From Candidatus Odinarchaeia archaeon (GTDB lineage: Archaea; Asgardarchaeota; Odinarchaeia; Odinarchaeales; Odinarchaeaceae): 32,000 nt of DNA. Location of the stretch: the NCBI GenBank assembly GCA_029856525.1, contig JAHQXC010000002.1:1-32000 (forward strand), given 5' to 3'. Made by a program: the position numbers and the translations under genes. Positions 1 through 22,862 of this stretch are shown here, one piece after another; positions within the stretch are counted from its first letter, which is position 1, and each line of letters begins with the position of its first letter. A model generated the notes under the pieces. It had not been told where the DNA came from and did no database searches. It worked only from the letters and a program-made list of their open reading frames with translations.

Positions 1-458
1 TCTAACATTTTTAGCACATCACTCCACTTCCATTTATCCCTATTGCTTAACTCGATTTTCTGCCGGACACTCATCCTAATAAATTTAGCTGTGAATAAAT
101 CAAAGAACGTGTCAATAATGTTTTTAACAGTAGGATCAGAATCATCATAGTGAACGTAGTATACATCCGGCTCAGGGTTTGAAAAACAGATTTTCCCAGT
201 ATCTGTTTTAAACCAGTTTAAAACCGCTAGGAACTCTTTCAAATCATTTTCAGATAAAGTGAGTTTACCGTTAAACTTCGCGTCTACTGGTTTGAAAATA
301 TTTTCTGGAATCCTGTCTGGAATGTTTAACAGCGGTTTATCAAGCTCTCTTAAGACCTCGCCTTTAGAGAGATATCTGTCCTCTGATCTGCCTATTAACA
401 GATCTAAAACCTCTTTTTTAAGACGTTTAAGATTATCACCTATCTCTTCCATGTCCAT
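1..458 (-). CDS. Hypothetical protein, 5' part only (runs off the left edge); probably co-transcribed downstream of pelG
   Basis: Translated by hand: ATG at 458 (or 452), 5 nt after the pelG stop, then 152 open codons to the window edge (MDMEEIGDNLKRLKKEVLDLLIGRSEDRYLSKGEVLRELDKP...KWKWSDVLKML). It is missing from the ORF track because there is no stop in the window. No family recognised. Confidence 0.75.
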   Translation of the reverse strand, partial: MDMEEIGDNLKRLKKEVLDLLIGRSEDRYLSKGEVLRELDKPLLNIPDRIPENIFKPVDAKFNGKLTLSENDLKEFLAVLNWFKTDTGKICFSNPEPDVYYVHYDDSDPTVKNIIDTFFDLFTAKFIRMSVRQKIELSNRDKWKWSDVLKML

Positions 459-463
459 CCATC

Positions 464-2062
464 CTAAAGAAGAGTTGAATAAGCTCTATACGGGAACTCC
501 ATAATATTCTTTTTTACTAATTGGAGTCCTATCACTGTTCCTAGTATGAAAGCTGAGATGTAACCTAAAACAGCGAAATAAACTGATCCGCTTATAATGG
601 TTAGTAGCGGGCATAATACAATATTAGCCATGAATGTTAAAAGCATAAGCCAAACGTTTAAAGAATGCTGTTCAAGGTACATTAAACCTAAATAGCAGAG
701 GATTGTAGCAGTGTGGAAGATTACGCCTATCGTAGCCATTCTAAAAACGAATAACGCTGCAGGCATAGTGAAACCGAGTATTGTAATCTTAGGAGTTAAA
801 GGATCGCTTAAATTCAGAAAAATAGAGATAATATTTTCACCGAATATATTCAAAACTATCGTAAACCCTAATATCACCAACATTGAAGTGACCACCAGCT
901 TTCTGAAGAATTTATAAAAACTCTGGAGGTTTCTCTCTAAACTTGGAAGAGGGTCTTTATAGGTTCCTGAAACCGCTCTCTGAAAGTTAGGTGTAAATAA
1001 CTCCATTAAAACAGCGATTAAGCCAACTCCCGGGATCAGAATCCATTGAGCTATATTTATACCGGTCTCGTAAAAGACATTAAAAGCTAAAAATAAGCCG
1101 GCTGTAGCCTGCCCTGAAACAAACCAGACGAAGAATCTATCCGCCCATAGCGTGGCGAAATATAACATGTTTGCTAAAAATAAAGCTATAAAATTTTTGA
1201 GACTACTAGCTACAGTAACTTCACCGTGTTTTCCAAGATTTTTAACTTCACTTATATCATGTTCTATTTTCATTAAAAGCTGGCCGAACTCTTTAACAAG
1301 CTTCTGATATTCTTCTAAAAATATTTCCCCTTTCTCGAAACGGATTCTTATATCTTCTAATATTTTGAAAAGCGCGACTCTTCTAGCAGCTAACTCAGCG
1401 GCTACATTCTTACCGGTTTTCAATATAACATTAAGATATATGAATGTGCCGATTGAAGCTGAGAAAAACCCTAAACTTTGGAAAATGATAACTCCGCTCA
1501 CCCCGAAGTTTAAAGCTCCGAACACGGATAAAGCGTATCCGATGATGCTTCCAGCAGCGAATATTACAGTTAACTGGCCGAATTTCCTTAACCCTATTAT
1601 AGGGGCTACAGCAACCCATAAAAATGAGAGAGCGGAGAACTGGAGTGCGAAGAGCAGGCTATTAGATAAACCGCCTGTGAGCATATTTTCAACAACTATC
1701 GCTATAACAGCTGACATTAGACAGAGCACGCCAGTTAGCGCGTATATTTTTAAAGTAAATCGCGCAGCTGTTTTATTATCGCCTATAGCGATTTTATCTA
1801 AAACTATTTTAGTTTCTAAAGCTTGAAAGCCGGCTGTTGAAATTAAGCTTAGAGGGGTTGCTAAACTTATTATTAGACCTAAAGTAGCTCTCTCAGATGG
1901 AAGGAGAGCGGAAGCTATATAATATCCTGTAATTGTGGAGCATACTATTACTAGAAGCCATGGGCCGTTAGCTAGAAGACTATAAGATAGAAATCGGCCT
2001 ATAAGCTTAATTTTACTGTCCTTTCTACTTTCAACCTGGACTTCGCTTATACCGGTTTCCAT
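464..2062 (-). CDS. pelG: Pel exopolysaccharide transporter PelG-like protein (multi-pass membrane) with a charged central insertion
   Basis: About 12 hydrophobic segments. N-terminal YSLLANGPWLLVI and the post-loop MLYFATLWADRFFVWF and AQWILIPGVG segments match PelG motifs as I recall them (GPW; LWxDKxxFW; IIPG). Adjacent to a clear pelF. SD GGTGA 6 nt upstream of ATG. Confidence 0.8.
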   Translation of the reverse strand: METGISEVQVESRKDSKIKLIGRFLSYSLLANGPWLLVIVCSTITGYYIASALLPSERATLGLIISLATPLSLISTAGFQALETKIVLDKIAIGDNKTAARFTLKIYALTGVLCLMSAVIAIVVENMLTGGLSNSLLFALQFSALSFLWVAVAPIIGLRKFGQLTVIFAAGSIIGYALSVFGALNFGVSGVIIFQSLGFFSASIGTFIYLNVILKTGKNVAAELAARRVALFKILEDIRIRFEKGEIFLEEYQKLVKEFGQLLMKIEHDISEVKNLGKHGEVTVASSLKNFIALFLANMLYFATLWADRFFVWFVSGQATAGLFLAFNVFYETGINIAQWILIPGVGLIAVLMELFTPNFQRAVSGTYKDPLPSLERNLQSFYKFFRKLVVTSMLVILGFTIVLNIFGENIISIFLNLSDPLTPKITILGFTMPAALFVFRMATIGVIFHTATILCYLGLMYLEQHSLNVWLMLLTFMANIVLCPLLTIISGSVYFAVLGYISAFILGTVIGLQLVKKNIMEFPYRAYSTLL

Positions 2063-2098
2063 TAATTTTCACCTTGAATTTTGTAGTCTAACAATATA

Positions 2099-2141
2099 CT
2101 TAATATAGTTTTATATTAAGAATAGTATTATAAATATAATA
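2099..2141. promoter_or_regulatory. Divergent pelG/pelF promoter region with two perfect inverted repeats
   Basis: CTTAATATA-GTTT-TATATTAAG (2099-2120, 9-bp arms) and TATTATA-AA-TATAATA (2126-2141, 7-bp arms, TATA-like on both strands), in the 114-bp gap between head-to-head genes. Confidence 0.5.
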
Positions 2142-2176
2142 AAGTTTTGCGAGAAGCTGTTTAAAGGTGGGTTAAG

Positions 2177-3604
2177 TTGAGGGATCTCAGAGTCTGCATG
2201 GTTACCGAGGGAACATACCCGTATTTTGTAGGCGGCGTAAGCTCCTGGGTTCATAGATTAATCACCCAGCTAAAACATATTAAATTTGACATACTCGCTA
2301 TTATACCCCCAGGTGAATTAAAAGAGAAATACCAGCCTCCGCCGAATCTCGAAAACATTTACAAGATACCTATAACAGACGAGCAGAAGTTCACGCAGCC
2401 ACGTCTTAAAACAGGGGAGTATTACGATAAATATATTAGAACAGTGAAATGGCTCCACCAGTATCTTAACGAAGAGGATTTTAACAATGCTTCAGAGTAT
2501 GTGGTGAAACTTTACACTCAGCTTGAAAACGATAAACCACGGTTCTGGGCTAGTAAAGTAGGCTGGGAGTATTTAAAAGAACAATATTATAAAAGAGAAG
2601 ACCCTCCTTCTATGATCGAATGGATACTAGCTTGGAAGGACACGCATATTCCTCTGCTAAATCTATTAGCTAACAGTATACCGGAAGCTGATATCTACCA
2701 TGGAACCAACAGCGGTTACGCTGGTTTCCTCGCAGTTATAGGAGGACTCAAATATAATAAACCTGTTGTCATCACCGACCACGGAATATTTCTCAGAGAA
2801 CGGTTAATGGAGTTAACTAAGGCTAAAGTGAAAGGTTTAGCTGAAGAAATGTGGCTGGATGTCTTAACAGGGTTAAGTAGATTCATATACATGAACTGTA
2901 CGCTTGTAACTTCAGTTTGCAATTATAACGTTAACTGGGTTACAGAGAAGCTTAGAATCCCTAAAGATAAATTCAAAGTCATATATAATGGAGTGGACCC
3001 TGAAAGATTAAAACCTGTAGAAGTGCCTAAACCACCATACAAAGTGGTTGGAAGCATCAGCAGAATTCACCCGATTAAAGATATTAAAATGTTTATTAAA
3101 GCCGCGGAGATTGTTTCAAAAAAAGACGGAAACGTGAAATTCTTCGTAGTCGGGCCTGTAGATGACCAGAAATATTATAAAGAATGCTTAAACCTTATTA
3201 AAAAACTCGGTTTAACCGAAAACTTTATTTTCACAGGTTCCAGGGGAGAAGACATATTATACTGGTATAATTTATTCGATATATTCGTGTTAACAAGCAT
3301 CTCCGAGGGTTTTCCGATGTCAACTATCGAGGCGATGGCGTGCGGTACACCGGTAATAGTCACAGATGTCGGTGGAGCTGCTGAACCTGTTGAAGGATGC
3401 GGTTACGTTGTACCATCAGGAGATGCTGAGCAACTAGCAGAGAGAATACTTGAAATAATTCAAAACAAAGAGTTAGCTGAGAAATTATCTGAAAACGCTA
3501 GGAGAAAAGTTGTAGAACAGTTCTCGCTTCCAAAAATAATGGAGGAGTATAGTAAAGTATACCAACAGATTTCCAAGCAATCCGCAGGTCTCCCTGAAGA
3601 ATAG
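2177..3604 (+). CDS. pelF: GT4 family glycosyltransferase PelF (DUF3492 N-terminal region plus GT-B C-terminal domain)
   Basis: N-terminal VCMVTEGTYPYFVGGVSSWVHRLI is the PelF/DUF3492 signature. Also TDHGIFLRER, SRIHPIKDIKMFIKA and the EX7E motif SISEGFPMSTIE. TTG start with SD GGTGG 6 nt upstream. Confidence 0.88.
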   Translation: MRDLRVCMVTEGTYPYFVGGVSSWVHRLITQLKHIKFDILAIIPPGELKEKYQPPPNLENIYKIPITDEQKFTQPRLKTGEYYDKYIRTVKWLHQYLNEEDFNNASEYVVKLYTQLENDKPRFWASKVGWEYLKEQYYKREDPPSMIEWILAWKDTHIPLLNLLANSIPEADIYHGTNSGYAGFLAVIGGLKYNKPVVITDHGIFLRERLMELTKAKVKGLAEEMWLDVLTGLSRFIYMNCTLVTSVCNYNVNWVTEKLRIPKDKFKVIYNGVDPERLKPVEVPKPPYKVVGSISRIHPIKDIKMFIKAAEIVSKKDGNVKFFVVGPVDDQKYYKECLNLIKKLGLTENFIFTGSRGEDILYWYNLFDIFVLTSISEGFPMSTIEAMACGTPVIVTDVGGAAEPVEGCGYVVPSGDAEQLAERILEIIQNKELAEKLSENARRKVVEQFSLPKIMEEYSKVYQQISKQSAGLPEE

Positions 3605-3786: not shown

Positions 3787-4473
3787 TTAGATGGAAACCC
3801 CCTCATCAGGTTTGAACATAGGTTCAAGCGGGCTGGATTCCTTTTTCTCAACAGTTTTAGCTAACTTTTCTTTTTTAGGTAGAATATAACCACCGATTTT
3901 ACCGCCTACAGCCCCTGTAATCAACGCGATAATCACGTTTATTATAAGAGCGAGGATAATAGGTTGAAGAATACTAGCTATTAAAGTAGAAATATCGAAG
4001 CCGCCGCCGAAACCTGAGAGTATGAATGTGATCAGCGAGTCAACTAAGCCTCCTATTACCGGAGCGCTTAAAATAGCTATTATATCAACGCCTGCAGGCG
4101 GACTTGTTATAAGCGACATTAATTGCGCTTGAACAGTAGGATTACTCATCACGGTGAAAGCGCTTAAAACACCGAACCCGGCCATTAAGAGAAAACCGAA
4201 AAAGAGAGTCGAAATAGCTACAGCGACACCACCTTTCCCTGAACCAGCTATTAACCCGCCTACTAAAGCAGCGCCTACTAGAATAGAGATATGTATAAGA
4301 TCATCGTAAGGCCCGAGTAAAGCGTAAAATTCGGTTAAAATAATTGTTAAGTTTACTCCGAAAACAGGGTTAAACCATGTGATAAGCATAGCGTAGCCTT
4401 CTGGTAGAAACATAAGAGTTAAACCGAAAATCATCGCCATTGATATAATCCAGCCTAATAGCTTGCTACCCGT
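3787..4473 (-). CDS. Hypothetical Gly-rich multi-pass membrane protein
   Basis: Five to six hydrophobic helices with GxxxG-rich stretches (GAALVGGLIAGSGKGG, GAVGGKIGG) and a charged C-tail. The ORF track starts at GTG 4563, inside the structured element. The only strong SD (GGAGGTG, 4480-4486) points to an in-frame ACG at 4473, giving (M)GSKLLGWIISM. The start is uncertain. Confidence 0.7.
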   Translation of the reverse strand, partial: TGSKLLGWIISMAMIFGLTLMFLPEGYAMLITWFNPVFGVNLTIILTEFYALLGPYDDLIHISILVGAALVGGLIAGSGKGGVAVAISTLFFGFLLMAGFGVLSAFTVMSNPTVQAQLMSLITSPPAGVDIIAILSAPVIGGLVDSLITFILSGFGGGFDISTLIASILQPIILALIINVIIALITGAVGGKIGGYILPKKEKLAKTVEKKESSPLEPMFKPDEGVSI

Positions 4474-4530
4474 TATAAACACCTCCGTGAAGTTAAACAA
4501 TTTTTGAAGTGAACTACCGCTATCTAAATC

Positions 4531-4690
4531 CGGTGGCTTGTAACCTCGCACTGAACCGTTCACAAGTACACTGTGAGAGGTTGAGGCTGGTTCACATCAG
4601 CCCAACTCCCCATCATATAGTCGAGGAGCCTGCTACCTATATTCACGCCACCGAATTCATCCACCGCTTAAAAGCGGCGGTCTTCTAGCG
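4531..4690 (-). mobile_element. Orphan IS200/IS605-like terminal hairpin fused to a predicted structured (pseudoknotted) RNA; no transposase or TnpB/IscB in the window
   Basis: GC-rich island in an AT-rich gap. The minus strand reads AGAAGACCGCCGCTTTTAAGCGGTGGATGAATT, a hairpin resembling IS200/IS605 ends as I recall them. It is followed by a ~123-nt unit closed by a 7-bp stem (4531-4537/4647-4653), with a long internal hairpin (4575-4611), a stem ATATAG/CTATAT (4637-4642/4615-4620) and a CCTCG/CGAGG pairing (4622-4626/4544-4548). Confidence 0.55.
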
Positions 4691-9658: not shown

Positions 9659-11626
9659 CTAGTAGAATATTAACGTTAGAATAGTGTTAGCTAACCCGCC
9701 TATGAGAAAAGCGATTGTGATCGTGGCGACAGGGATAATGAACGCGTATTTTAAGCCAAGTTCTCTTCCTATAACTGCGAATGTAGCGATACATGGAATA
9801 TATAAACTGATAACTAGCGCGAAAACGATTAAATTAACCGGTGTTAAAACCGTTAACAGATTGCTTGTACCTAACACCTCTATAAGCATGATAGCTGCTA
9901 ACTCTTTTCTTAAAACGCCGAAGATTAATACGACACCGGTCACGGCAGGTAAACCGAGAAGGCCGACGGTTAACGGCGCGAAGATGCTGGAGATGAAGGT
10001 TAACAAGTTAAAATATTTTAAACCGCCTAGCAGAATGCTTCCGATTATGATGATAGGTAGCGCGACTGTTAAGAAATCTTTTATTCTAAGCCAGGTTTTC
10101 TTTAAAATATTTTTAATTTGAGGAGTACGGTAAGGCGGTATCTCCATAACTAAACCTGTTTTTTCTCCTTTTAAAACCTTGTTTAAGAGATAACCTGAAA
10201 TAAAGACTATTACTATAATACATGCGAACAGTAATATTACAGGTATTACACCTATATATGATCCTATAATAGCTAGTATAACTGATATTCTAGCTGAGCA
10301 CGGGATAAGAGTGATTATAAAAGAGGCGATAACTCTTTCTCTTTTAGTTGCTAGAATCCTTGTACTCATAATAGCTGGTACACTGCAGCCTAAACCCATC
10401 ATAAGCGGGATCACAGATTTACCGTGTAAACCAAGCTTATGCATAACGCTATCGGTTAGAAAGGCTATTCGAGCAAGATACCCGGTGTCCTCAAGTAAGC
10501 CTAAAATTATATAAAATGTGAAAACATATGGTAAAACTATTGAGAGAGTGGCTTCAACACCGAGGGTTAACCCCTCTATGAAGACTGTGTTAATCATGTT
10601 ATTTGAGATGAGATTAGATATATTTGATATTAAAGGTTTTATAGCTGTATTCCATCCGAGTGAAAAAAGCTCTTCCAGAAAGCCGCCTCCGAAGATTAGA
10701 AATAAAAGTAACCCTGTTAAAACAGCTATCATTACAGGTATACCGGTTAACGGTCTTGTTGTTATTAAATCCAGTTTATCTTTAAAGCTTTGAACAGGTT
10801 TATGAAACTCTTTCACAATACTAGCTATATGCGTCGCTAAAGCGTTACGCTCCTTCATTATGCGAACAATAGAACTTTCACCGTGCTCGGCTTCGATTAA
10901 ACTCGTTAATTTAATCGCTTCCTCATATATGGTAGGTGAAGTGTCTTTAACCTGTTCGAGGATAAGCGGGTCTTTTTCAAGTATTCTAATAGCGATCTCT
11001 CTTTCTGGGAGATTAAACTTAACTCTAAAATTATTTTCTTTAAGCAATTTTACTAAAGAATCTATTATCTTCTCTATGTCTTTGCCAAATTGTAATCGAA
11101 TGGGTTTCAGAATAGTTTTCCCCTCGTATACTGATATAACTATTTTTATAAGCTCGTCTACGCCGTAACCGCGAATAGCGATAGTCGGCACTACAGGAAT
11201 ACCTAAAAGCTGGTGGAGTTTATTGTAATTTATTTTAATCCCTTTTTTTTCAGCTTCATCAATCATGTTTAAGCATATAATCATCGGGGCTTCCAGTTCT
11301 AATAATTCAAGTGTGAGAATGAGGTTACGTTCGAGATTAGATGCGTCGACAACGTTTACAATTATAGATTTATCTTTTAGCTCAAGTATTTTGTTACGTG
11401 CAACTATTTGCTCGATTGAACCTGTTCCGAGAGAGTAAACTCCAGGTAAATCTAGTATTTTAAATTCGAATTCTTTCAACTTAGAGTAACCCTCTGTGAA
11501 ATCGACTGTTGTCCCCGGGTAGTTTGAAACAGTAACACCCATACCTGTCATATTATTAAATAACACTGATTTACCAATATTCGGGTTACCTACTAACAAG
11601 ATTATAGGAGTTTTTTTAGATTCCAT
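9659..11626 (-). CDS. feoB: Ferrous iron transport protein B
   Basis: G1 GNPNIGKS, G2 NYPGTTV, G3 DLPGVYSL, DASNLERNL and G4 NMID, followed by a membrane domain with LEDTGYLAR, GLGCSVPA, PCSAR, MEIPPYR and YIPCIAT. Confidence 0.95.
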   Translation of the reverse strand: MESKKTPIILLVGNPNIGKSVLFNNMTGMGVTVSNYPGTTVDFTEGYSKLKEFEFKILDLPGVYSLGTGSIEQIVARNKILELKDKSIIVNVVDASNLERNLILTLELLELEAPMIICLNMIDEAEKKGIKINYNKLHQLLGIPVVPTIAIRGYGVDELIKIVISVYEGKTILKPIRLQFGKDIEKIIDSLVKLLKENNFRVKFNLPEREIAIRILEKDPLILEQVKDTSPTIYEEAIKLTSLIEAEHGESSIVRIMKERNALATHIASIVKEFHKPVQSFKDKLDLITTRPLTGIPVMIAVLTGLLLFLIFGGGFLEELFSLGWNTAIKPLISNISNLISNNMINTVFIEGLTLGVEATLSIVLPYVFTFYIILGLLEDTGYLARIAFLTDSVMHKLGLHGKSVIPLMMGLGCSVPAIMSTRILATKRERVIASFIITLIPCSARISVILAIIGSYIGVIPVILLFACIIVIVFISGYLLNKVLKGEKTGLVMEIPPYRTPQIKNILKKTWLRIKDFLTVALPIIIIGSILLGGLKYFNLLTFISSIFAPLTVGLLGLPAVTGVVLIFGVLRKELAAIMLIEVLGTSNLLTVLTPVNLIVFALVISLYIPCIATFAVIGRELGLKYAFIIPVATITIAFLIGGLANTILTLIFY

Positions 11627-11660
11627 TTAAACCACTTATAAAATCATTCAGTTTAAAAAT

Positions 11661-12209
11661 TCAAAGCTTTCTTACAAGTATGCGGTGAGTTATATTCCTG
11701 CTTAAAGCTACTTCAAAACCGCTTATCTTCAAGATGGTTGTTCCACCGAATCTAGATTTAGCAGTTACCTCAGCTTTAACACCGGGTATTATCCCTATAC
11801 AGAGAAGCTGTTTTTCGATTATAGGGTTACCTGGTAGAATTTCAATTATTTCAACTTTAGCAGGGGGATCAACTTCCATAAGACGTTGAAACTGTTCCCC
11901 GCCAATTTTCTTTTCCTTAAAGGTCTGTGATTCTTTACTACTAGAATTAGAGAGGATCATGTTATTAGGATTCTCACTTAATTTTAAAACAAGTTCACGC
12001 CCTTTATTAGTAAGATGGATTCTCCCCCGCCAGTTAACCTTTATCAGATTCATTTCTTCAAGTAGGCGGAGGGTTTTCATAAAATCCTCTCTGTCTTTTA
12101 TATTTAACCTGTGTTGAATAGAGTCTAACGAAGTGTTTTTCCAAACTGATTCCGACTTGTATAACTCTTCGAGTATTTTACATAATCCGCTGGTAGGGGG
12201 CTGATCCAT
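11661..12209 (-). CDS. Winged-helix + FeoA domain fusion protein
   Basis: C-terminal FeoA (KQLLCIGIIPGVKAEV...GFEVALSRNITHRILV). The N-terminal LRLLEEMNLIKVNWRGRIHLTNKGRELV is a winged-HTH wing motif. Likely start is ATG 12209 (GTGG 5 nt upstream). Directly upstream of feoB. Confidence 0.75.
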   Translation of the reverse strand: MDQPPTSGLCKILEELYKSESVWKNTSLDSIQHRLNIKDREDFMKTLRLLEEMNLIKVNWRGRIHLTNKGRELVLKLSENPNNMILSNSSSKESQTFKEKKIGGEQFQRLMEVDPPAKVEIIEILPGNPIIEKQLLCIGIIPGVKAEVTAKSRFGGTTILKISGFEVALSRNITHRILVRKL

Positions 12210-12269
12210 ATAAACCACGGCTGATTAGTTAACATGACCGAAATATATTTATATGCCTCTATTTATAAG

Positions 12270-12310
12270 TATTTCGTATATCCGAAATATTCATATTCGT
12301 ATAACCGAAT
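12270..12310. promoter_or_regulatory. Tandem palindromic operators, probable DtxR-family binding sites
   Basis: TATTTCG-TATATC-CGAAATA (12270-12289) and ATTCG-TATAAC-CGAAT (12295-12310) share the core TTCGTATAWCCGAA at 13/14 identity, 23 bp apart. They lie in the divergent feo/dtxR gap, just after TATA-like TTTATAAG (12262-12269). Confidence 0.65.
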
Positions 12311-12312
12311 TC

Positions 12313-12984
12313 ATGATGAAAATGAAAAAAGAAGATAACCTAACTCACATGGCCGAGGATTATATAGCAATAATCTACAGGCTCCATGAGAAAAAGAACA
12401 CACTCGTAAAAATATCTGATCTCGCAGATTATCTACCGAATTCTCCGAGCACAATCACTGAAATGATTCAAAGATTAGCGGCTAAAAAATATTTAGATTA
12501 TGAACCTTTTAAAGGGGTTAGATTATCTCAAAAAGGAATTCAGCTAGCTGAAAAAATATTAAGAAGACATAGAATAATTGAAAGGTTTTTAACAGATATT
12601 TTAGATTTAAGCCCTGCTGAAGCTCACAACGAAGCATGCAAACTAGAGCATACAGTTTCACCTATAATCGAAGAGAGACTTTACAATGTTTTACATAAAC
12701 CAGTCACATGCCCTCATGGAAATGAGATAAACACTAAAATGAAGGAATCTCATCTAGCGGACATGTATAGTTTAAATGTTAGCGAGAGCGCTGTGATAAA
12801 AAAATTCATAGACGAAAGAGAGGAGATATTAAAGTCAATATATAGTTTAGGATTACAGATAGGAGTGCATTTCAAAATTATTAGAAAAGATGAAGATAGA
12901 ATTCTTATAAACATGGAAAACAATAAGTCGGTTCTATTAGATCGAAAACTAGCTGAAACAATACTCGTTGAGAGAGTTACTTAA
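12313..12984 (+). CDS. dtxR: DtxR/MntR/IdeR family metal-dependent transcriptional regulator with C-terminal FeoA-like domain
   Basis: EDYIAIIY, ISDLADYL...PSTITEMIQRL (HTH), RRHRIIERFL, EACKLEH (Cys/Glu/His metal ligands) and CPHGN. Start is ATG 12313, 12316 or 12322; the longer ORF-track start overlaps the promoter. Confidence 0.88.
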   Translation: MMKMKKEDNLTHMAEDYIAIIYRLHEKKNTLVKISDLADYLPNSPSTITEMIQRLAAKKYLDYEPFKGVRLSQKGIQLAEKILRRHRIIERFLTDILDLSPAEAHNEACKLEHTVSPIIEERLYNVLHKPVTCPHGNEINTKMKESHLADMYSLNVSESAVIKKFIDEREEILKSIYSLGLQIGVHFKIIRKDEDRILINMENNKSVLLDRKLAETILVERVT

Positions 12985-19100: not shown

Positions 19101-20366
19101 ATGAAAATGGGCTCGAAAGAAATATTCGAAGCAGCTTCGAAAAGTATCCTACTAAAAGATCCATATGTTAAGAAAATCTGGAATCTTATAAACGATAAAA
19201 CCTTATTTAATAAATCACCGGATTATCTTAAAGCGCTTAGAAAAAGTCTATTAAGAGAAGCCTTAGACTTTTTTTCTAGGAGAAGCGAATACTACCAACA
19301 GACCTTTGAGAAATTAAATATTAACCCGAAGAATGCGGATTTTACAGATTTAGCGAAGCTAGCTGTTCCAGCTGATATGCTAAGAGGTGAAGGGCATAAA
19401 CAGTTCCTGATAAGGGATGTTGAGCAGGGAGGGGAATACTTTACCTCAAGTGGAACCACAGGTAAAACACCTGTTAAAATATATAGAAGCCCTTTGGATC
19501 TGGCTATAATGATTAAAGCTAACACCGATCTATTTGAATATGTTTACGGAGATGTTTTAGAGCAGGGTAAAGGTATAGCTTTATTCATGGCAGCCCCGGA
19601 GTTAAGATATAAATTAAGTTTCGTAGCGTTCGTTGATCTCACACTCGACAATAAAAATATTCCATTATTATATGGAATGAATCTTGTTCGAAACAAAGAC
19701 GGTACAACTGACTGGCAGAGACTTGAGTTAAATAAAGAGAATGTGGTGAAATTTTTGAAAAGTCGAGAGGAGCCTAAACTGTTTTTCACAGCACCGGCAG
19801 GCGTCTATCTTATGGCGGATAAATTCGATAAAATGAACTTCTTAAAAAAGCTAATATACAGGATAGCCACTACAGCCCCCCCTGTCAACCTAGGAAAAGG
19901 GGGGGTGATTGTAACCGGAGGGGGAACTAAAGGGTTTACAAATCTGCCGTCATATGATAAGATTGTGGAGCTTTCAAGAAAATATTTTAAAGCTAAAAAT
20001 AAAGCAGGGGAGGAGCACCCAGCACCTTTCATGGATGTGCTAGGGATGACGGAGACTTTAACCGCGTTAATAGATCGATTCGGTGTTATGAATAAAATAC
20101 CACACCCCTTATCCCACGTTTTCCTATTAAAACCTAGTACATTTGAGTTAATAGAAGATGATGAAGGGCAGGAAGGCGTGTTAGGTATATTCAACCCGTT
20201 TACAACATCATGGCTTGAATTATTCTATCCAGGTGATTTCATGAAAGCTCACAGCTCTAATCGATATTACGGTAAAGAATACACTTATGTTAGAAGATTC
20301 ACCCCTGAAGAGGGCTGGGAGCTTCAAAGAGCATGCGGGGGAACACTAGAAGAGATGATGAGATAA
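19101..20366 (+). CDS. LuxE-like acyl-protein synthetase (adenylate-forming)
   Basis: FTSSGTTGK (adenylation A3 loop), VTGGGTKG, DVLGMTE, GVLGIFNP and YPGDF, plus C-terminal LQRACGG matching the LuxE acylated Cys (RGC). Start is ATG 19101 or 19107. Confidence 0.75.
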   Translation: MKMGSKEIFEAASKSILLKDPYVKKIWNLINDKTLFNKSPDYLKALRKSLLREALDFFSRRSEYYQQTFEKLNINPKNADFTDLAKLAVPADMLRGEGHKQFLIRDVEQGGEYFTSSGTTGKTPVKIYRSPLDLAIMIKANTDLFEYVYGDVLEQGKGIALFMAAPELRYKLSFVAFVDLTLDNKNIPLLYGMNLVRNKDGTTDWQRLELNKENVVKFLKSREEPKLFFTAPAGVYLMADKFDKMNFLKKLIYRIATTAPPVNLGKGGVIVTGGGTKGFTNLPSYDKIVELSRKYFKAKNKAGEEHPAPFMDVLGMTETLTALIDRFGVMNKIPHPLSHVFLLKPSTFELIEDDEGQEGVLGIFNPFTTSWLELFYPGDFMKAHSSNRYYGKEYTYVRRFTPEEGWELQRACGGTLEEMMR

Positions 20367-20382: not shown

Positions 20383-21852
20383 ATGAAGTTAACTCCTTTA
20401 GCACCTATGAGCATAAGAGATTTTATTAGAAAAACAGTAGGAGACATAGAGGTATTAGAGCTTAGCGAAAAAAGTTTAGATGAAATCTTAAAAGAATTTA
20501 AATCGATTCAATCCTCTTTAGCAAAAACACCTATAGAAGAAAGGATTAAAATATTCGACAAGCTCGGTTTAATTTGGAGAAGAAAATTAGATAACGGTGA
20601 ACTTGAAAACTTGAAGAAAACGCTATCAGAATTGACAGGTTATAGTGAACACCTCATAGAGTTAGAGTTTAATCTAGTCTCCTATCTGTTAAACGAAGCT
20701 AATATTAGGCGTAATCTGGAAGCAGCTTTCAATAATGGAGTGGAAGGCCTTAGCAAATTCATTAAAATCGCTGAAAACGAGTACTTTAAGTATATGCCGG
20801 CTGGGCCTGTGTTCATAATAAGTTCAGGTAACTCTCTTATACCCCCACTTATCCCAACCACTTTATCGCTGGTAACAGGAAATTTAACAATACTTAAACC
20901 ATCTATTTCAAATTATCCCGGTGTTATTGAAGTTTACAGAAATCTAGAGGAGATTGCGAAAAATGATAAGACAGCGGAGACCATTCTCTCAGCGATAGTC
21001 ATCAGCTATTTCACACATGACAGCCCGGCACTCAAGCATCTTTTAACTAAAACCCCATTAGGAGTTGTTAATTTCTGGGGAGCTGAACCTGCTAGAACTG
21101 TGATAGCTAAACTTGTAGCAGAAAACCAATATCATCCACGCCTTATAGTGAACGGCCCTTTAACAGGTTTAGCGATAATAGACTCAGAGTCAGCTAACCT
21201 AGCAGCTAAAGAACTGGCGTTAAACATGATCTTATACGATCAGCAACTTTGCAGTTCACCTACGCAAGCAGTTTTTATAGGTAAATTAGAAGAAGCGGTT
21301 TCATTCGCTGAAAGTGTAGGGCGATACCTAGACCTTATCGGCGATAAAATTAAGATGAAAACTAAAGACTCTGCGCTTTACCTTCTGCAAACCGCTAGAC
21401 GAGCATTACAGTTTAAGGGAGTTAAAATACTGTTCTCAAATAAACACGACAACCCTTGGACTATAATAGTATCAAAAGAGAAAAGTAGTTTACAATCGTT
21501 ATCAGAAAGCCTACCAGAGTTTAATATCTATAATAGGAGAAGATTCATAGAAATAATAGTTACGGAAAAATTAGATGACGCGCTTAAAATAATAGAATCA
21601 GTTCGTTTAAATCCTGCTTTCAAAGAAGTAGATAAAGTTCAATCAATAGGGTTAGCGTTATCCGAGTCTAATAAAAATAAAATAATAGAGGAACTGCCTA
21701 ATACGGGAATATATAGAATCACTACTCTAGCAGATATGTATATGAGAAGCGCTATAGAACCATACGATGGAGCGTCGATACCATTACTTTTCACTTACAC
21801 AGTTTATAGAAGAGATGTTAAACATCCATATGAAATAGCCCAATTATTTTAG
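20383..21852 (+). CDS. LuxC-like acyl-CoA/acyl-protein reductase (ALDH-like fold)
   Basis: PAGPVFIISSGN, LKPS, VNFWGA, NGP and YDQQLCSSPTQ (the LuxC catalytic Cys motif DQxxCxSP). Starts 16 bp after the luxE-like gene. Confidence 0.8.
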   Translation: MKLTPLAPMSIRDFIRKTVGDIEVLELSEKSLDEILKEFKSIQSSLAKTPIEERIKIFDKLGLIWRRKLDNGELENLKKTLSELTGYSEHLIELEFNLVSYLLNEANIRRNLEAAFNNGVEGLSKFIKIAENEYFKYMPAGPVFIISSGNSLIPPLIPTTLSLVTGNLTILKPSISNYPGVIEVYRNLEEIAKNDKTAETILSAIVISYFTHDSPALKHLLTKTPLGVVNFWGAEPARTVIAKLVAENQYHPRLIVNGPLTGLAIIDSESANLAAKELALNMILYDQQLCSSPTQAVFIGKLEEAVSFAESVGRYLDLIGDKIKMKTKDSALYLLQTARRALQFKGVKILFSNKHDNPWTIIVSKEKSSLQSLSESLPEFNIYNRRRFIEIIVTEKLDDALKIIESVRLNPAFKEVDKVQSIGLALSESNKNKIIEELPNTGIYRITTLADMYMRSAIEPYDGASIPLLFTYTVYRRDVKHPYEIAQLF

Positions 21853-21866
21853 GAAGTGAGTTTAAA

Positions 21867-22862
21867 ATGAAAATCCTTGTAACAGGGGCCTCAGGTTTTT
21901 TAGGAGGCCACTTAGTTGAAACTTTAGCGAATAAAGGATATAAGATAATAGCTATGGTAAGAGAGACCAGTAATATAGAATTAATAAAAGACTTAGTATT
22001 CGAATTCAGATATGCTGATTTAAGTGAACCTGAAACTATCGTCGAAGCTGTTAAAGGCGTTGACGTTATAATCCATTTAGCAGCCTACTATACTTTTCAC
22101 GGTTCCAGCAAACTATATGAAAAAATTAACGTTGAAGGAACAAGATATTTAGCTGAAGCTGCTTTAAAAAATAAAATTCAACACTTCATCTACTGTAGTA
22201 CAACCGAAGTTATAGGCCCTGTTAAAAATCCCCCGGGAGATGAAAACACTGAACCTAACCCTACTTATGAATACGGGAGATCGAAACTAAAAGCGGAGAA
22301 GATAATTAAAGAATATGGTTTAAAAGGCGTAAATTATACGATTATACGACCCTCAGGAATATATGGGCCTAGAAACGTTAACGACGTATCATACTGGACA
22401 ATCACATCTTTCGCTAAAAACTCTATAGGCACACGATTTATTATAGGTAGCGGTGAAAACCTAGTTCAGTTCGTTCATGTAAAAGATGTTGTTGAAGGAT
22501 TCACTTTAGCATTAGAAAAAAGAGACATATCAAGTAGACAAACATATATTATCAGCGAGGATAAAGCTTACACATATAAGCAAGTATATGAAATTCTAGC
22601 AGATTTAACCGGTAGAAAACCGCCAAGCAAGCATATACCTAAAACATTAGCTAAAATTTTAATAGCGCCTATACAAGGAGTAAATAGAATACTCGGTAAA
22701 GAGAATTTTTTATATCATATTAGCACCGTTGACTCTGTCTGCTCTGATAGAGCCTATAGTATTGAGAAAGCTAAACGAGAATTAGGTTATACTCCCAGAT
22801 ATGATTTGAGAACAGGGTTGAAGGAAACAATCGAATGGTATACTAAAAATGGATATATCTAG
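21867..22862 (+). CDS. NAD-dependent epimerase/dehydratase family extended SDR (3-beta-HSD-like)
   Basis: TGASGFLG, HLAA, NVEGT, CST, YGRSK (YxxxK) and RPSGIYGP. Third gene of the luxE-luxC run (14-bp gap). Confidence 0.88.
   Translation: MKILVTGASGFLGGHLVETLANKGYKIIAMVRETSNIELIKDLVFEFRYADLSEPETIVEAVKGVDVIIHLAAYYTFHGSSKLYEKINVEGTRYLAEAALKNKIQHFIYCSTTEVIGPVKNPPGDENTEPNPTYEYGRSKLKAEKIIKEYGLKGVNYTIIRPSGIYGPRNVNDVSYWTITSFAKNSIGTRFIIGSGENLVQFVHVKDVVEGFTLALEKRDISSRQTYIISEDKAYTYKQVYEILADLTGRKPPSKHIPKTLAKILIAPIQGVNRILGKENFLYHISTVDSVCSDRAYSIEKAKRELGYTPRYDLRTGLKETIEWYTKNGYI

What the first reader, a model, noticed from the sequence alone, without database searches (positions are those of the whole stretch)
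464..3604. Pel exopolysaccharide synthase core (pelF + pelG) in an apparent Asgard archaeon
Seen: strong PelF and PelG signature motifs side by side with intact catalytic-type motifs (EX7E, RxxPIKD), but arranged head-to-head. Established: Pel is a cationic, GalNAc-rich biofilm polysaccharide made by a PelDEFG complex in Pseudomonas and in Gram-positives such as Bacillus cereus, under c-di-GMP control through PelD. Inference: this archaeon may make a Pel-like polymer for biofilm or syntrophic adhesion using a rearranged system, possibly without c-di-GMP control. I know of no characterised archaeal Pel system but cannot search the literature.
Basis: partly seen in the sequence, partly recalled or inferred. 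Interest (0 to 1): 0.8.

Follow-up and report, generated by a model that had tools for sequence, protein, structure and literature searches.

The report
Asgard-type PelF/PelG polysaccharide gene pair
An Odinarchaeia (Asgard archaeon) genome carries a real, conserved pair of genes related to the bacterial Pel biofilm-polysaccharide synthase (PelF) and exporter (PelG). The pair belongs to an old Asgard-only branch that lacks the bacterial c-di-GMP control parts, and public annotation and one paper had already flagged it.

Summary
Window 2177-3604(+) encodes a GT4 glycosyltransferase that passes NCBI's PelF model (231 bits, cut-off 100) and has DUF3492, RxxPxK and EX7E. Window 464-2062(-) encodes a membrane protein whose only Pfam hit is PelG (81.7 bits, cut-off 29). 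The two genes are head-to-head, 114 bp apart.

The genome is Odinarchaeia (Asgard). The pair is not a recent bacterial import:
- PelF and PelG each sit in Asgard-only clades (PelF 99/97 support).
- They co-occur in the same 6 of 400 Asgard species genomes.
- They are under strong purifying selection (dN/dS about 0.05-0.07).
- They lie in a five-gene module conserved across Odinarchaeia.

I found no PelD, PelE or GGDEF protein, so c-di-GMP control is unlikely.

The genome has a second, divergent pair elsewhere: PelF2 plus a 1297-aa deacetylase-like ectodomain fused to a PelG-like domain. An earlier agent of this scan had already reported that locus. In sister Asgard lineages PelF, PelF2 and PelG cluster with a Ras-family GTPase and a TackOD1 protein.

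The polymer and its role remain untested. NCBI already names these proteins PelF/PelG, and Russum et al. 2021 noted the Odin PelG homologue. Verdict: a new variant of a known kind, of moderate interest.

The parts
2177..3604 (+). pelF1: cytosolic GT4 glycosyltransferase of the PelF family (DUF3492 N-domain plus GT4 C-domain), 475 aa from a conserved TTG. The public gene call starts at ATG 2198 and gives 468 aa.
   Evidence: NF038011 scores 231 bits against a cut-off of 100, and DUF3492 scores 206 bits. RxxPxK and EX7E are present. It lies in an Asgard PelF clade with 99/97 support. dN/dS is 0.06-0.07. The TTG and the GGTG upstream are conserved.
464..2062 (-). pelG1: multi-pass membrane protein of the PelG / EPS-E family (MOP flippase superfamily), 532 aa, with a ~65-aa cytoplasmic helical insert at about residues 215-280.
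   Evidence: PF16933 is the only Pfam hit, at 81.7 bits against a cut-off of 29. Hydropathy gives 9 merged hydrophobic blocks. In 1.84 billion representatives only 7 clusters match at E<1e-30, and all that carry a name are Asgard. dN/dS is 0.05-0.07.
2063..2176 (.). Shared divergent intergenic region (114 bp, AT-rich) with long blocks invariant across four Odin species. It is the presumed back-to-back archaeal promoters or regulatory site for pelG1 and pelF1.
   Evidence: Alignment A5 shows, for example, AAATATAATAAAGTTTTGCG invariant at about 2132-2151. The promoter function is inferred, not shown.
3..458 (-). orf161: soluble 161-aa protein of no known family, starting 5 nt downstream of pelG1 on the same strand. 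The contig end cuts it here to 152 aa. It is followed in relatives by a ~425-aa coiled-coil protein with a C-terminal winged-helix domain.
   Evidence: It has orthologues next to pelG in all Odinarchaeia loci, including the one whose PelF is 57% identical. dN/dS is 0.07-0.085. The fold is confident (pLDDT 83.7) but unmatched. It has no Pfam or NCBIfam hit.
3787..4563 (-). Glycine-rich 4-6 TM membrane protein of no known family, convergent with pelF1. The true start is probably about 30 codons inside this ORF, because relatives are 218-230 aa.
   Evidence: It is kept next to pelF in all Odinarchaeia loci, although the gene beyond it differs (leuA here, an aminotransferase in L109). It is 43% identical to the L109 orthologue. 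dN/dS is 0.11-0.13. No family was found. The link to Pel rests on conserved neighbourhood only.

Best explanation
This is a functional Asgard-type PelF/PelG pair. PelF1 is a cytosolic GT4 enzyme that builds a sugar polymer from a UDP-sugar at the inner face of the membrane. PelG1 is a MOP-family membrane protein that takes the polymer across the single archaeal membrane to the cell surface. By analogy with Pel, the sugar would be UDP-GalNAc or UDP-GlcNAc.

The pair belongs to an old Asgard-specific lineage of the Pel machinery and is not a recent bacterial import. It works without the bacterial PelD/PelE/c-di-GMP switch. In Odinarchaeia the two genes share one divergent promoter region. They travel with three lineage-specific genes that are candidate accessory or regulatory parts: orf161, a coiled-coil winged-helix protein, and a small membrane protein.

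The other conserved parts of the Asgard system lie at two other loci of this genome. These are the paralogue PelF2, a deacetylase-like ectodomain fused to a second PelG-like domain, and a Ras-family GTPase with a TackOD1 protein.

Shown: family membership, phylogeny, conservation, co-occurrence, and that PelD/PelE/GGDEF were not found. Inferred: polymerisation and export, the sugar, the surface or biofilm role, and any role of the neighbouring genes.
For: Family membership.

Genuine archaeal context:
- The same gene order is seen in 4/4 genomes of the genus, including a closed 1.418-Mb genome.
- The window carries archaeal genes such as PAC2, DUF123, HMG-CoA reductase and EF-2.
- GC is an even 0.35-0.42 across the window.

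Phylogeny:
- The 21 Asgard PelF1 sequences form one clade (99/97). It is not nested in any bacterial phylum and is separate from a TACK-archaeal clade. The AU test rejects a single archaeal clade, p=0.002.
- The PelG tree has the same shape.
- Bacterial PelGs match this PelG only at E~1e-7, against E<1e-30 for Asgard PelGs.

Co-occurrence: PelF over its cut-off and PelG are found in exactly the same 6 of 400 Asgard species genomes.

Selection: dN/dS is 0.05-0.07.

Conserved neighbourhood: the five-gene module is kept down to 54-57% identity, with different flanking genes.

No bacterial switch: no GGDEF, PelD or PelE was found.

Rest of the system:
- PelF2 scores 194.7 bits on NF038011, and the Asgard PelF2 paralogues form one clade at 95.
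- The C-terminal domain of the 1297-aa protein is a PelG homologue by hhalign (98.7%, E 1.8e-16).
- That protein shares an invariant HSxxH motif with the Heimdall deacetylase-PelG fusion. The fusion hits Polysacc_deac_1 at 28.7 bits against a cut-off of 23.1.
- In L016/L108/L107 the Ras GTPase, TackOD1, PelG, PelF2 and PelF genes are clustered.
Against: - No experiment or transcript data exist for any archaeal PelF/PelG.
- In B. cereus and S. intermedius, pelD and pelE are each required (PMC7112168, PMC12345266). A pair without them may work differently or make something else.
- Substrate cannot be read from a GT4 sequence. The presence of two PelF paralogues in Asgard archaea hints at a polymer that differs from homopolymeric Pel.
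- The PelD/PelE HMMs were built from Proteobacteria. They also miss PelD/PelE in Gram-positive-type and Bacteroidota-type loci, so very divergent equivalents are not excluded.
- The own genome is 93% complete.
- The accessory role of orf161, the coiled-coil protein and the membrane protein rests on neighbourhood alone.
- The deacetylase assignment of the Odin ectodomain is weak. The best PDB profile hit is PdaC at E 0.024, and Pfam reaches 19 bits in two orthologues but found nothing in the own genome's copy.
Confidence: 0.7

Rival explanations
1. The pair makes a different glycoconjugate. Candidates are a cell-envelope or S-layer-associated glycan, or a heteropolymer built by PelF1 and PelF2 together. 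In that case 'Pel' is only a family label, and the product is not a GalNAc-rich, partly deacetylated Pel-like exopolysaccharide.
For: - Asgard genomes carry two conserved PelF paralogues.
- PelD and PelE are absent.
- Asgard PelG is very far from bacterial PelG, at E~1e-7.
- No GH114/PelA-hydrolase-like gene was found in the Odin genomes.
- Only a few members of the PelF family have a known product (PMC7112168, PMC12345266).
Against: - PelF and PelG always co-occur and co-evolve, as in bacterial pel loci.
- A deacetylase-like ectodomain is fused to PelG in Heimdall and to a PelG-like domain in Odin. This fits the export-then-deacetylate logic proposed for B. cereus PelA_DA-PelG (PMC13254593).
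- A GalE-like epimerase lies near PelF2 (195.9 bits, below its cut-off of 262.3), as in many Gram-positive pel loci (PMC7112168).
Confidence: 0.22
2. The pair is a recent horizontal transfer from bacteria, or a bacterial contig mis-binned into an archaeal MAG.
For: - The Pel machinery is overwhelmingly bacterial.
- PelF/PelG is patchy in Asgard archaea, in 6 of 400 species genomes and 3 of 85 genera.
- TACK archaea carry a separate PelF clade that sits among bacteria.
Against: - The same locus is present in a closed Odin genome and in 4/4 congeners, flanked by archaeal housekeeping genes.
- GC does not differ from the surroundings.
- The nearest PelF and PelG relatives are all Asgard.
- The Asgard clades are deep, well supported, and not nested in any bacterial phylum.
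Confidence: 0.03
3. The pair is a decaying relic with no current function.
For: - The bacterial partners PelD and PelE are missing.
- The system is scattered over three loci in Odin.
- Odin genomes are small (~1.4 Mb).
Against: - The reading frames are intact and the catalytic motifs are kept.
- dN/dS is 0.05-0.07 at dS of about 1-1.8.
- The genes are retained in all four species of a streamlined genus and in deeper Odinarchaeia.
- The promoter region is highly conserved.
Confidence: 0.03

Closest known systems
Gram-positive pel operon, pelDEA_DAFG (Bacillus cereus ATCC 10987; Streptococcus intermedius). PMC7112168, PMC12345266, PMC13254593.
   Same: - It operates across a single membrane.
- It has a PelF-family GT4 with DUF3492 and a PelG-family exporter.
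- It has an extracellular, membrane-anchored deacetylase proposed to dock on PelG. In Asgard archaea the deacetylase-like ectodomain is fused to a PelG-type domain, in Heimdall and at the second Odin locus.
- A GalE-like epimerase lies near one locus.
- In the PelF tree the Asgard clade lies on the Gram-positive/Bacteroidota side, not the proteobacterial side.
   Different: - No PelD or PelE was found, and there are no GGDEF proteins in the genome.
- pelF and pelG are head-to-head here. In nearly all bacterial loci examined pelG follows directly downstream of pelF.
- PelG is extremely divergent.
- A second PelF paralogue is conserved across Asgard archaea.
- The neighbours are different: orf161, the coiled-coil winged-helix protein and the small membrane protein in Odin, and a Ras-family GTPase with TackOD1 in sister lineages.
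Pseudomonas aeruginosa pelABCDEFG (PelDEFG inner-membrane complex; c-di-GMP receptor PelD)
   Same: The PelF catalytic-type motifs are present (R-x4-K and E-x7-E). The PelG family exporter is present. The overall logic is the same: a cytosolic GT4 plus a MOP-type membrane protein.
   Different: - There are no PelA hydrolase, PelB or PelC equivalents, as there is no outer membrane.
- There is no PelD, PelE or c-di-GMP.
- The proteobacterial PelF clade is the most distant branch of the family from the Asgard clade.
Other Asgard PelF/PelG loci already named by NCBI annotation (Heimdallarchaeota JBHIFL01; 'Asgardarchaeia' JBNGVH01/JBNGVI01), and the EPS-E homologue noted in Odin by Russum et al. 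2021 (PMC7997004)
   Same: They belong to the same Asgard PelF1, PelF2 and PelG clades. All lack PelD and PelE in the loci examined.
   Different: - In those lineages the genes are clustered with a Ras-family GTPase and TackOD1 (L016, L107, L108), or with a coiled-coil protein, TackOD1 and a deacetylase-PelG fusion (Heimdall).
- In Odinarchaeia the system is split over three loci, and pelF1/pelG1 are divergent with their own conserved neighbours.

Membership tests
PelF (NCBIfam NF038011; GT4 with DUF3492 N-domain) | Scores above the curated equivalog cut-off over the full model length | tested here: met
   231.1 bits against a cut-off of 100, covering model positions 2-489/489. All other GT4 equivalogs score far below their own cut-offs.
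PelF (NCBIfam NF038011; GT4 with DUF3492 N-domain) | DUF3492 N-terminal domain joined to a GT4 (Glycos_transf_1) C-terminal domain | tested here: met
   PF11997 scores 206 bits over residues 5-255, and PF00534 scores 135 bits over residues 280-443.
PelF (NCBIfam NF038011; GT4 with DUF3492 N-domain) | Retaining-GT4 catalytic-type motifs R-x4-K and E-x7-E | tested here: met
   RIHPIK and EGFPMSTIE are present. In the numbering of the 468-aa public gene call (P0012), K294, E370 and E378 are invariant and R289 is >=90% conserved in 18 diverse PelFs. That these residues matter for P. aeruginosa PelF is from my memory of the literature and was not checked here.
PelF (NCBIfam NF038011; GT4 with DUF3492 N-domain) | Falls inside the PelF clade rather than with generic GT4s | tested here: met
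   The PelF family is split from four other GT4s of the same genome with 98-100 support. The window protein lies in the Asgard subclade, 99/97.
PelF (NCBIfam NF038011; GT4 with DUF3492 N-domain) | Uses UDP-GalNAc to make an alpha-1,4-GalNAc polymer | not testable with these tools
   This needs an enzyme assay or product analysis.
PelG (Pfam PF16933; TCDB EPS-E 2.A.66.6) | Scores above the Pfam gathering threshold across the model, and no other MOP/MATE/Wzx family scores better | tested here: met
   81.7 bits against a cut-off of 29, covering model positions ~29-451/452 in two stretches. It is the only Pfam family at E<=0.01. NCBIfam returned no family.
PelG (Pfam PF16933; TCDB EPS-E 2.A.66.6) | Multi-pass (12-TM) MOP-type topology | tested here: inconclusive
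   A crude hydropathy scan gives 9 merged hydrophobic blocks, which is compatible with 11-12 helices. No dedicated topology predictor or structure model was run.
PelG (Pfam PF16933; TCDB EPS-E 2.A.66.6) | Encoded next to, and co-inherited with, a PelF gene | tested here: met
   The genes are adjacent here. The same 6 of 400 Asgard genomes hold both. The PelF and PelG trees have the same shape.
Complete Pel system (PelDEFG synthase complex plus PelA-type modification, c-di-GMP control) | PelD: membrane GAF plus degenerate-GGDEF c-di-GMP receptor | tested here: not met
   There is no GGDEF (PF00990) in four Odin genomes or G009, and the control rang in 8 of 14 genomes. A PelD HMM from five proteobacterial loci finds 21 bacterial loci but nothing in the own genome, best E 0.3. 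PF16963 found nothing, but its control was silent. A very divergent analogue is not excluded.
Complete Pel system (PelDEFG synthase complex plus PelA-type modification, c-di-GMP control) | PelE: small membrane/TPR-like scaffold | tested here: not met
   A PelE HMM from four proteobacterial loci finds ~24 ORFs in the bacterial loci. Its best hit in the own genome is at E 0.02, which is not significant. Sensitivity is limited to proteobacterial-type PelE.
Complete Pel system (PelDEFG synthase complex plus PelA-type modification, c-di-GMP control) | Extracytoplasmic polysaccharide deacetylase (PelA / PelA_DA) | tested here: inconclusive
   None is present in the window. Elsewhere in the genome (C119) a 1297-aa protein has an ~800-aa ectodomain with an invariant HSxxH motif. 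Its similarity to CE4 deacetylases is weak (PdaC E 0.024), and Pfam Polysacc_deac_1 reaches 19 bits in two orthologues but nothing in the own copy. This ectodomain is fused to a PelG-like domain. The Heimdall fusion passes the Pfam cut-off, 28.7 against 23.1.
Complete Pel system (PelDEFG synthase complex plus PelA-type modification, c-di-GMP control) | Operon order: pelF immediately followed by pelG on the same strand | tested here: not met
   The genes are head-to-head here and in all Odinarchaeia loci. In nearly all of the ~65 bacterial loci with a PelG hit, pelG follows directly downstream of pelF on the same strand.

The most novel reading that the evidence does not exclude
In Asgard archaea a Pel-like surface polysaccharide machine (PelF1, PelF2, PelG and a deacetylase ectodomain) is switched by a eukaryote-like Ras/Rab-family small GTPase acting through a zinc-ribbon TackOD1 protein. 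That pair would take the place of the bacterial c-di-GMP/PelD switch. Odinarchaeia would keep the same parts but scattered, with orf161 and the coiled-coil winged-helix protein as local adaptors.

Evidence that does not exclude it:
- The GTPase-TackOD1-PelG-PelF2-PelF genes are clustered in three 'Asgardarchaeia' loci, and TackOD1 sits next to the PelG fusion in Heimdall.
- All 6 PelFG genomes have TackOD1.

Evidence that weakens it:
- TackOD1 is in 107 of 400 Asgard genomes, so it is not Pel-specific.
- In Odin the GTPase-TackOD1 pair is ~60 kb away from pelG1.
Probability: 0.15. Interest if true: 0.85.

Novelty: new variant of a known kind. Interest (0 to 1): 0.55.

Why it matters
Pel is one of the main bacterial biofilm polysaccharides. 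Its known synthase needs PelD and PelE and, in the best-studied species, c-di-GMP.

An old, conserved Asgard branch of PelF/PelG that lacks all three raises two points. It suggests a minimal or differently wired version of the machine. It also suggests that some Asgard archaea, the closest prokaryotic relatives of eukaryotes, can make a Pel-like surface polymer. Such a polymer could matter for the cell-cell attachment and syntrophy that these organisms appear to depend on.

The natural fusion of a deacetylase-like ectodomain to PelG supports the docking model recently proposed for B. cereus PelA_DA-PelG (PMC13254593). The fusion is seen in Heimdall and at the second Odin locus.

The gene-neighbourhood link to a Ras-family GTPase in sister lineages gives a concrete, testable candidate output for Asgard small GTPases.

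The limits are clear. Everything here is sequence-based. The gene names are already in public annotation, and the PelG homologue in Odin has been mentioned in print.

Tried and rejected
- Complex prediction of PelG1 with orf161 returned 'no answer' (score 0.00). This is not evidence either way.
- The structure of orf161 was predicted with confidence (pLDDT 83.7). Foldseek against the PDB and the ESM-Atlas shape search gave no credible match. The Atlas feature search gave nothing.
- The small membrane protein next to pelF1 has no Pfam or NCBIfam hit. Its Atlas hits are only weak leads.
- The look-up of encoding contigs with the 475-aa PelF found no exact record.
- Expression: no RNA holder is listed among public runs. 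One DNA run holds the stretch and is probably the source sample.
- The PF16963 (PelD_GGDEF) genome search found nothing, but its control set was silent, so it counts for little.
- The sigma-70 and terminator scan is not meaningful for an archaeon and was not used.
- The epimerase in the window at 21867-22862 was considered as a UDP-GalNAc supplier. It scores best as HpnA-like and far below the GalE cut-off, so it was rejected as part of the system.
- A single archaeal origin of PelF (Asgard plus TACK) was considered. The AU test rejects it at p=0.002, but the grouping was named after I had seen the tree.
- TackOD1 as a Pel-specific subunit was considered and rejected. It occurs in 107 of 400 Asgard genomes, against 6 with PelFG.
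- Literature: I found no paper on an archaeal Pel system. The 'archaea' hits for PelF/PelG concern the bacterial partners of ANME.

Full report
**What is in the window.** The window is the first 32 kb of contig C14 of a 1.32-Mb, 93%-complete genome.

- ORF 2177-3604(+) is 475 aa and ORF 464-2062(-) is 532 aa. They are divergent, with 114 bp between them.
- The 475-aa protein passes NCBI's PelF equivalog model: NF038011, 231.1 bits against a cut-off of 100, full length. Every other GT4 equivalog is far below its own cut-off. It has Pfam DUF3492 (206 bits) plus Glycos_transf_1.
- RIHPIKD and EGFPMSTIE (EX7E) are present. Their key residues are invariant or nearly so in 18 diverse PelFs.
- The 532-aa protein has PelG (PF16933, 81.7 bits against 29) as its only Pfam hit at E<=0.01. 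The match is split by a ~65-aa cytoplasmic insert. It has no MATE/Wzx-type hit.
- The TTG at 2177 and a GGTG just upstream are conserved in four species. The ATG at 2198 used by the public gene call is not conserved.

**Whose genome.** Near-identical homologues are labelled Candidatus Odinarchaeia/Odinarchaeota.

- One congener is a closed genome of 1,418,269 bp.
- The window's other genes are ordinary archaeal ones: PAC2 proteasome chaperone, DUF123, LeuA, FeoAB, HMG-CoA reductase, ADP-forming acetyl-CoA synthetase and EF-2.
- GC is even across the window.
- The same order is found in 4/4 genomes of the genus: coiled-coil ~425 aa, orf161, pelG | pelF, small membrane protein, leuA.
- Contamination or mis-binning is excluded.

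**Origin.** Word-based and exhaustive searches give the same picture.

- PelF hits fall from Odin (54-100% identity) to a block of Asgard proteins (38-43%, 376-432 bits). Only then come bacteria and TACK archaea (<=34%, <=285 bits).
- For PelG, only seven 50%-identity clusters out of 1.84 billion proteins match at E<1e-30. All that carry names are Asgard. Bacterial PelGs appear only at E~1e-7.
- A careful ML tree (58 rows, LG+C20) separates the PelF family from other GT4s of this genome (100/99). It recovers one Asgard clade (99/97), with Odinarchaeia sister to Heimdall plus 'Asgardarchaeia'. It also recovers a separate TACK clade (100/99).
- An AU test rejects joining the two archaeal groups (p=0.002). 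The grouping was named after I had seen the tree.
- The PelG tree has the same internal shape.
- Among 400 Asgard species genomes, PelG and PelF (over its cut-off) are found in exactly the same six: four of this genus, G009 and G028. I searched PelG with the Pfam model and again with an Asgard-trained profile.
- The pair is therefore old, co-inherited and patchily kept in Asgard archaea. It is not a recent bacterial import.
- dN/dS of 0.05-0.07 at dS of about 1-1.8 shows that both genes are maintained.

**What is missing and what replaces it.** In bacteria PelD and PelE are needed together with PelF and PelG (PMC7112168, PMC12345266, PMC13254593).

- No GGDEF domain is found in four Odin genomes or G009, and the control rang in 8 of 14 genomes.
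- HMMs that I built from proteobacterial PelD and PelE recover those proteins in 21-24 bacterial loci. They find nothing in this genome. They would miss very divergent forms.
- No GH114-type hydrolase is present in the Odin genomes.
- Odinarchaeia instead keep a five-gene module even at 54-57% identity and with different flanking genes (locus L109). Its members are a coiled-coil protein with a C-terminal winged helix, orf161, PelG, PelF and a glycine-rich 4-6 TM protein.
- orf161 starts 5 nt after pelG. It folds confidently but has no known fold or family.
- The 114-bp intergenic region has long invariant AT-rich blocks, consistent with shared divergent promoters. That reading is an inference.

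**The rest of the Asgard system.** A PelF profile found a second hit in this genome, on contig C119.

- PelF2 is 436 aa and scores 194.7 bits on NF038011.
- Next to it lies a 1297-aa protein with a signal peptide, an ~800-aa ectodomain and ~11 TM helices.
- Its C-terminal domain is a PelG homologue by profile-profile comparison: 98.7% probability, E 1.8e-16, 436 columns.
- Its ectodomain shares an invariant HSxxH motif with a Heimdall 1383-aa protein that is a Polysacc_deac_1-PelG fusion. Direct deacetylase similarity of the Odin ectodomain is weak.
- A GalE-like epimerase lies nearby, scoring 195.9 bits, below its cut-off of 262.3.
- PelF2-type paralogues from four Asgard lineages form one clade at 95. 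In L016, L107 and L108 the paralogue sits next to PelF1, and in L016 and L108 also next to PelG.
- In those loci a Ras-family GTPase (Pfam Ras 166-191 bits) and a TackOD1 zinc-ribbon protein sit immediately upstream.
- In this genome that pair is on contig C118. In the closed genome it lies ~60 kb from pelG1.
- TackOD1 is in all six PelFG genomes but also in 101 others, so it is not Pel-specific.
- After finding these loci I checked the scan's earlier notes. Another agent had already described the C119 locus and the GTPase-TackOD1 pair on other pieces of this genome. My results agree with theirs.

**How it most likely works.**

- Shown: the two families, their Asgard-specific ancestry, co-inheritance, purifying selection, and that PelD, PelE and GGDEF were not found.
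- Inferred, by homology with characterised Pel systems (PMC7112168, PMC13254593): PelF1 polymerises a UDP-sugar at the membrane. PelG1 passes the chain across the single membrane. A membrane-tethered deacetylase-like ectodomain, here fused to PelG2, may modify it outside the cell.
- Inferred from neighbourhood only: control comes from lineage-specific neighbours rather than c-di-GMP.
- I put 0.7 on 'functional synthase-exporter pair making a surface or secreted polysaccharide without c-di-GMP'.
- Within that, I put roughly even odds on the polymer being GalNAc-rich like Pel. Asgard archaea keep two PelF paralogues, and their PelG is very divergent.

**Novelty.**

- NCBI annotation already names these proteins PelF/PelG in Odin, Heimdall and 'Asgardarchaeia' MAGs.
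- Russum et al. 2021 noted an EPS-E (PelG-family) homologue in Odin and suggested biofilm export (PMC7997004).
- The Gram-positive Pel paper does not mention archaea. I found no paper on an archaeal Pel system.
- What this analysis adds:
  - the Asgard-only clades and their strict co-occurrence;
  - the absence of the bacterial switch;
  - the conserved Odin module;
  - the picture of one ancestral Asgard gene set (PelF1, PelF2, PelG, deacetylase ectodomain, with a Ras GTPase and TackOD1 nearby) that is clustered in some lineages and scattered in Odin.
- I class it as a new variant of a known kind, with interest 0.55.

Noticed in passing
G000 contig C119 (locus L105:6361-12573), outside the window: This is a second Pel-like locus in the same genome. 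PelF2 (436 aa) scores 194.7 bits on NF038011. A 1297-aa protein there has a C-terminal TM domain that is a PelG homologue (hhalign 98.7%), and its ectodomain carries a CE4-like HSxxH motif. An integrase-like protein with a double zinc ribbon lies between them. A GalE-like epimerase and a KaiC-like ATPase lie upstream. An earlier agent of this scan had already reported this locus.
   Followed up: yes
G000 contig C118 (locus L106:3715-5540); also L016:7937-9543, L108:3473-5076, L107:5967-7580: A Ras-family small GTPase (184 aa) lies directly upstream of a TackOD1 zinc-ribbon protein. In three 'Asgardarchaeia' loci this pair sits immediately next to PelG, PelF2 and PelF. In Odin it is at a separate locus. 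TackOD1 occurs in 107 of 400 Asgard genomes.
   Followed up: partly
L017:6464-10615 (= G028 contig C38; Heimdallarchaeota JBHIFL01): This is a natural fusion of a Polysacc_deac_1 ectodomain to a PelG domain (1383 aa). It follows PelF, a 606-aa coiled-coil protein and TackOD1. It acts as a 'Rosetta stone' for the PelA_DA-PelG docking model of PMC13254593.
   Followed up: partly
L031, L066, L091 (Hecatellales, Thaumarchaeota and Thermoproteales MAGs): TACK archaea also carry PelF-family genes, and L031 has pelG directly downstream. These form their own clade among bacterial sequences, separate from the Asgard clade, which suggests a second, independent archaeal acquisition.
   Followed up: partly
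L029, L032, L047, L028, L039, L063, L055, L035, L077 (bacterial PelF loci): Many Bacteroidota-, Chloroflexota- and Acidobacteriota-type pel loci have a second PelF-like GT4 just upstream of pelF. These form their own clade (SH-aLRT support 90), distinct from the Asgard PelF2 clade. Two-GT4 pel loci therefore seem to have arisen more than once.
   Followed up: partly
window:2177-2198: The public gene call for this PelF starts at ATG 2198 (468 aa). The upstream TTG 2177 and a GGTG Shine-Dalgarno-like motif are conserved in four species, while the ATG is ATA in the others. The longer 475-aa form is therefore likely.
   Followed up: yes
window:12977-15076: Divergent AIR-carboxylase-like (LarB-like) and nickel-insertion (LarC-like, PF01969, 329 bits) genes lie here. 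This suggests synthesis of the nickel-pincer cofactor. They sit next to an iron-uptake cluster (FeoA, FeoB and a DtxR-type repressor at 9659-12984).
   Followed up: no
window:16193-17869 and 19101-20366: Two sizeable ORFs (558 aa and 421 aa) have no Pfam hit. The second precedes a LuxC-like acyl-CoA reductase (20383-21852) and an HpnA-like SDR epimerase/reductase (21867-22862), which may form a lipid- or alcohol-forming cassette.
   Followed up: no
G000 contig C14:34853-35389 (just beyond the window): Another Ras-family small GTPase gene lies on the same contig, ~31 kb from pelF1. The genome holds at least a dozen Ras-like hits.
   Followed up: no
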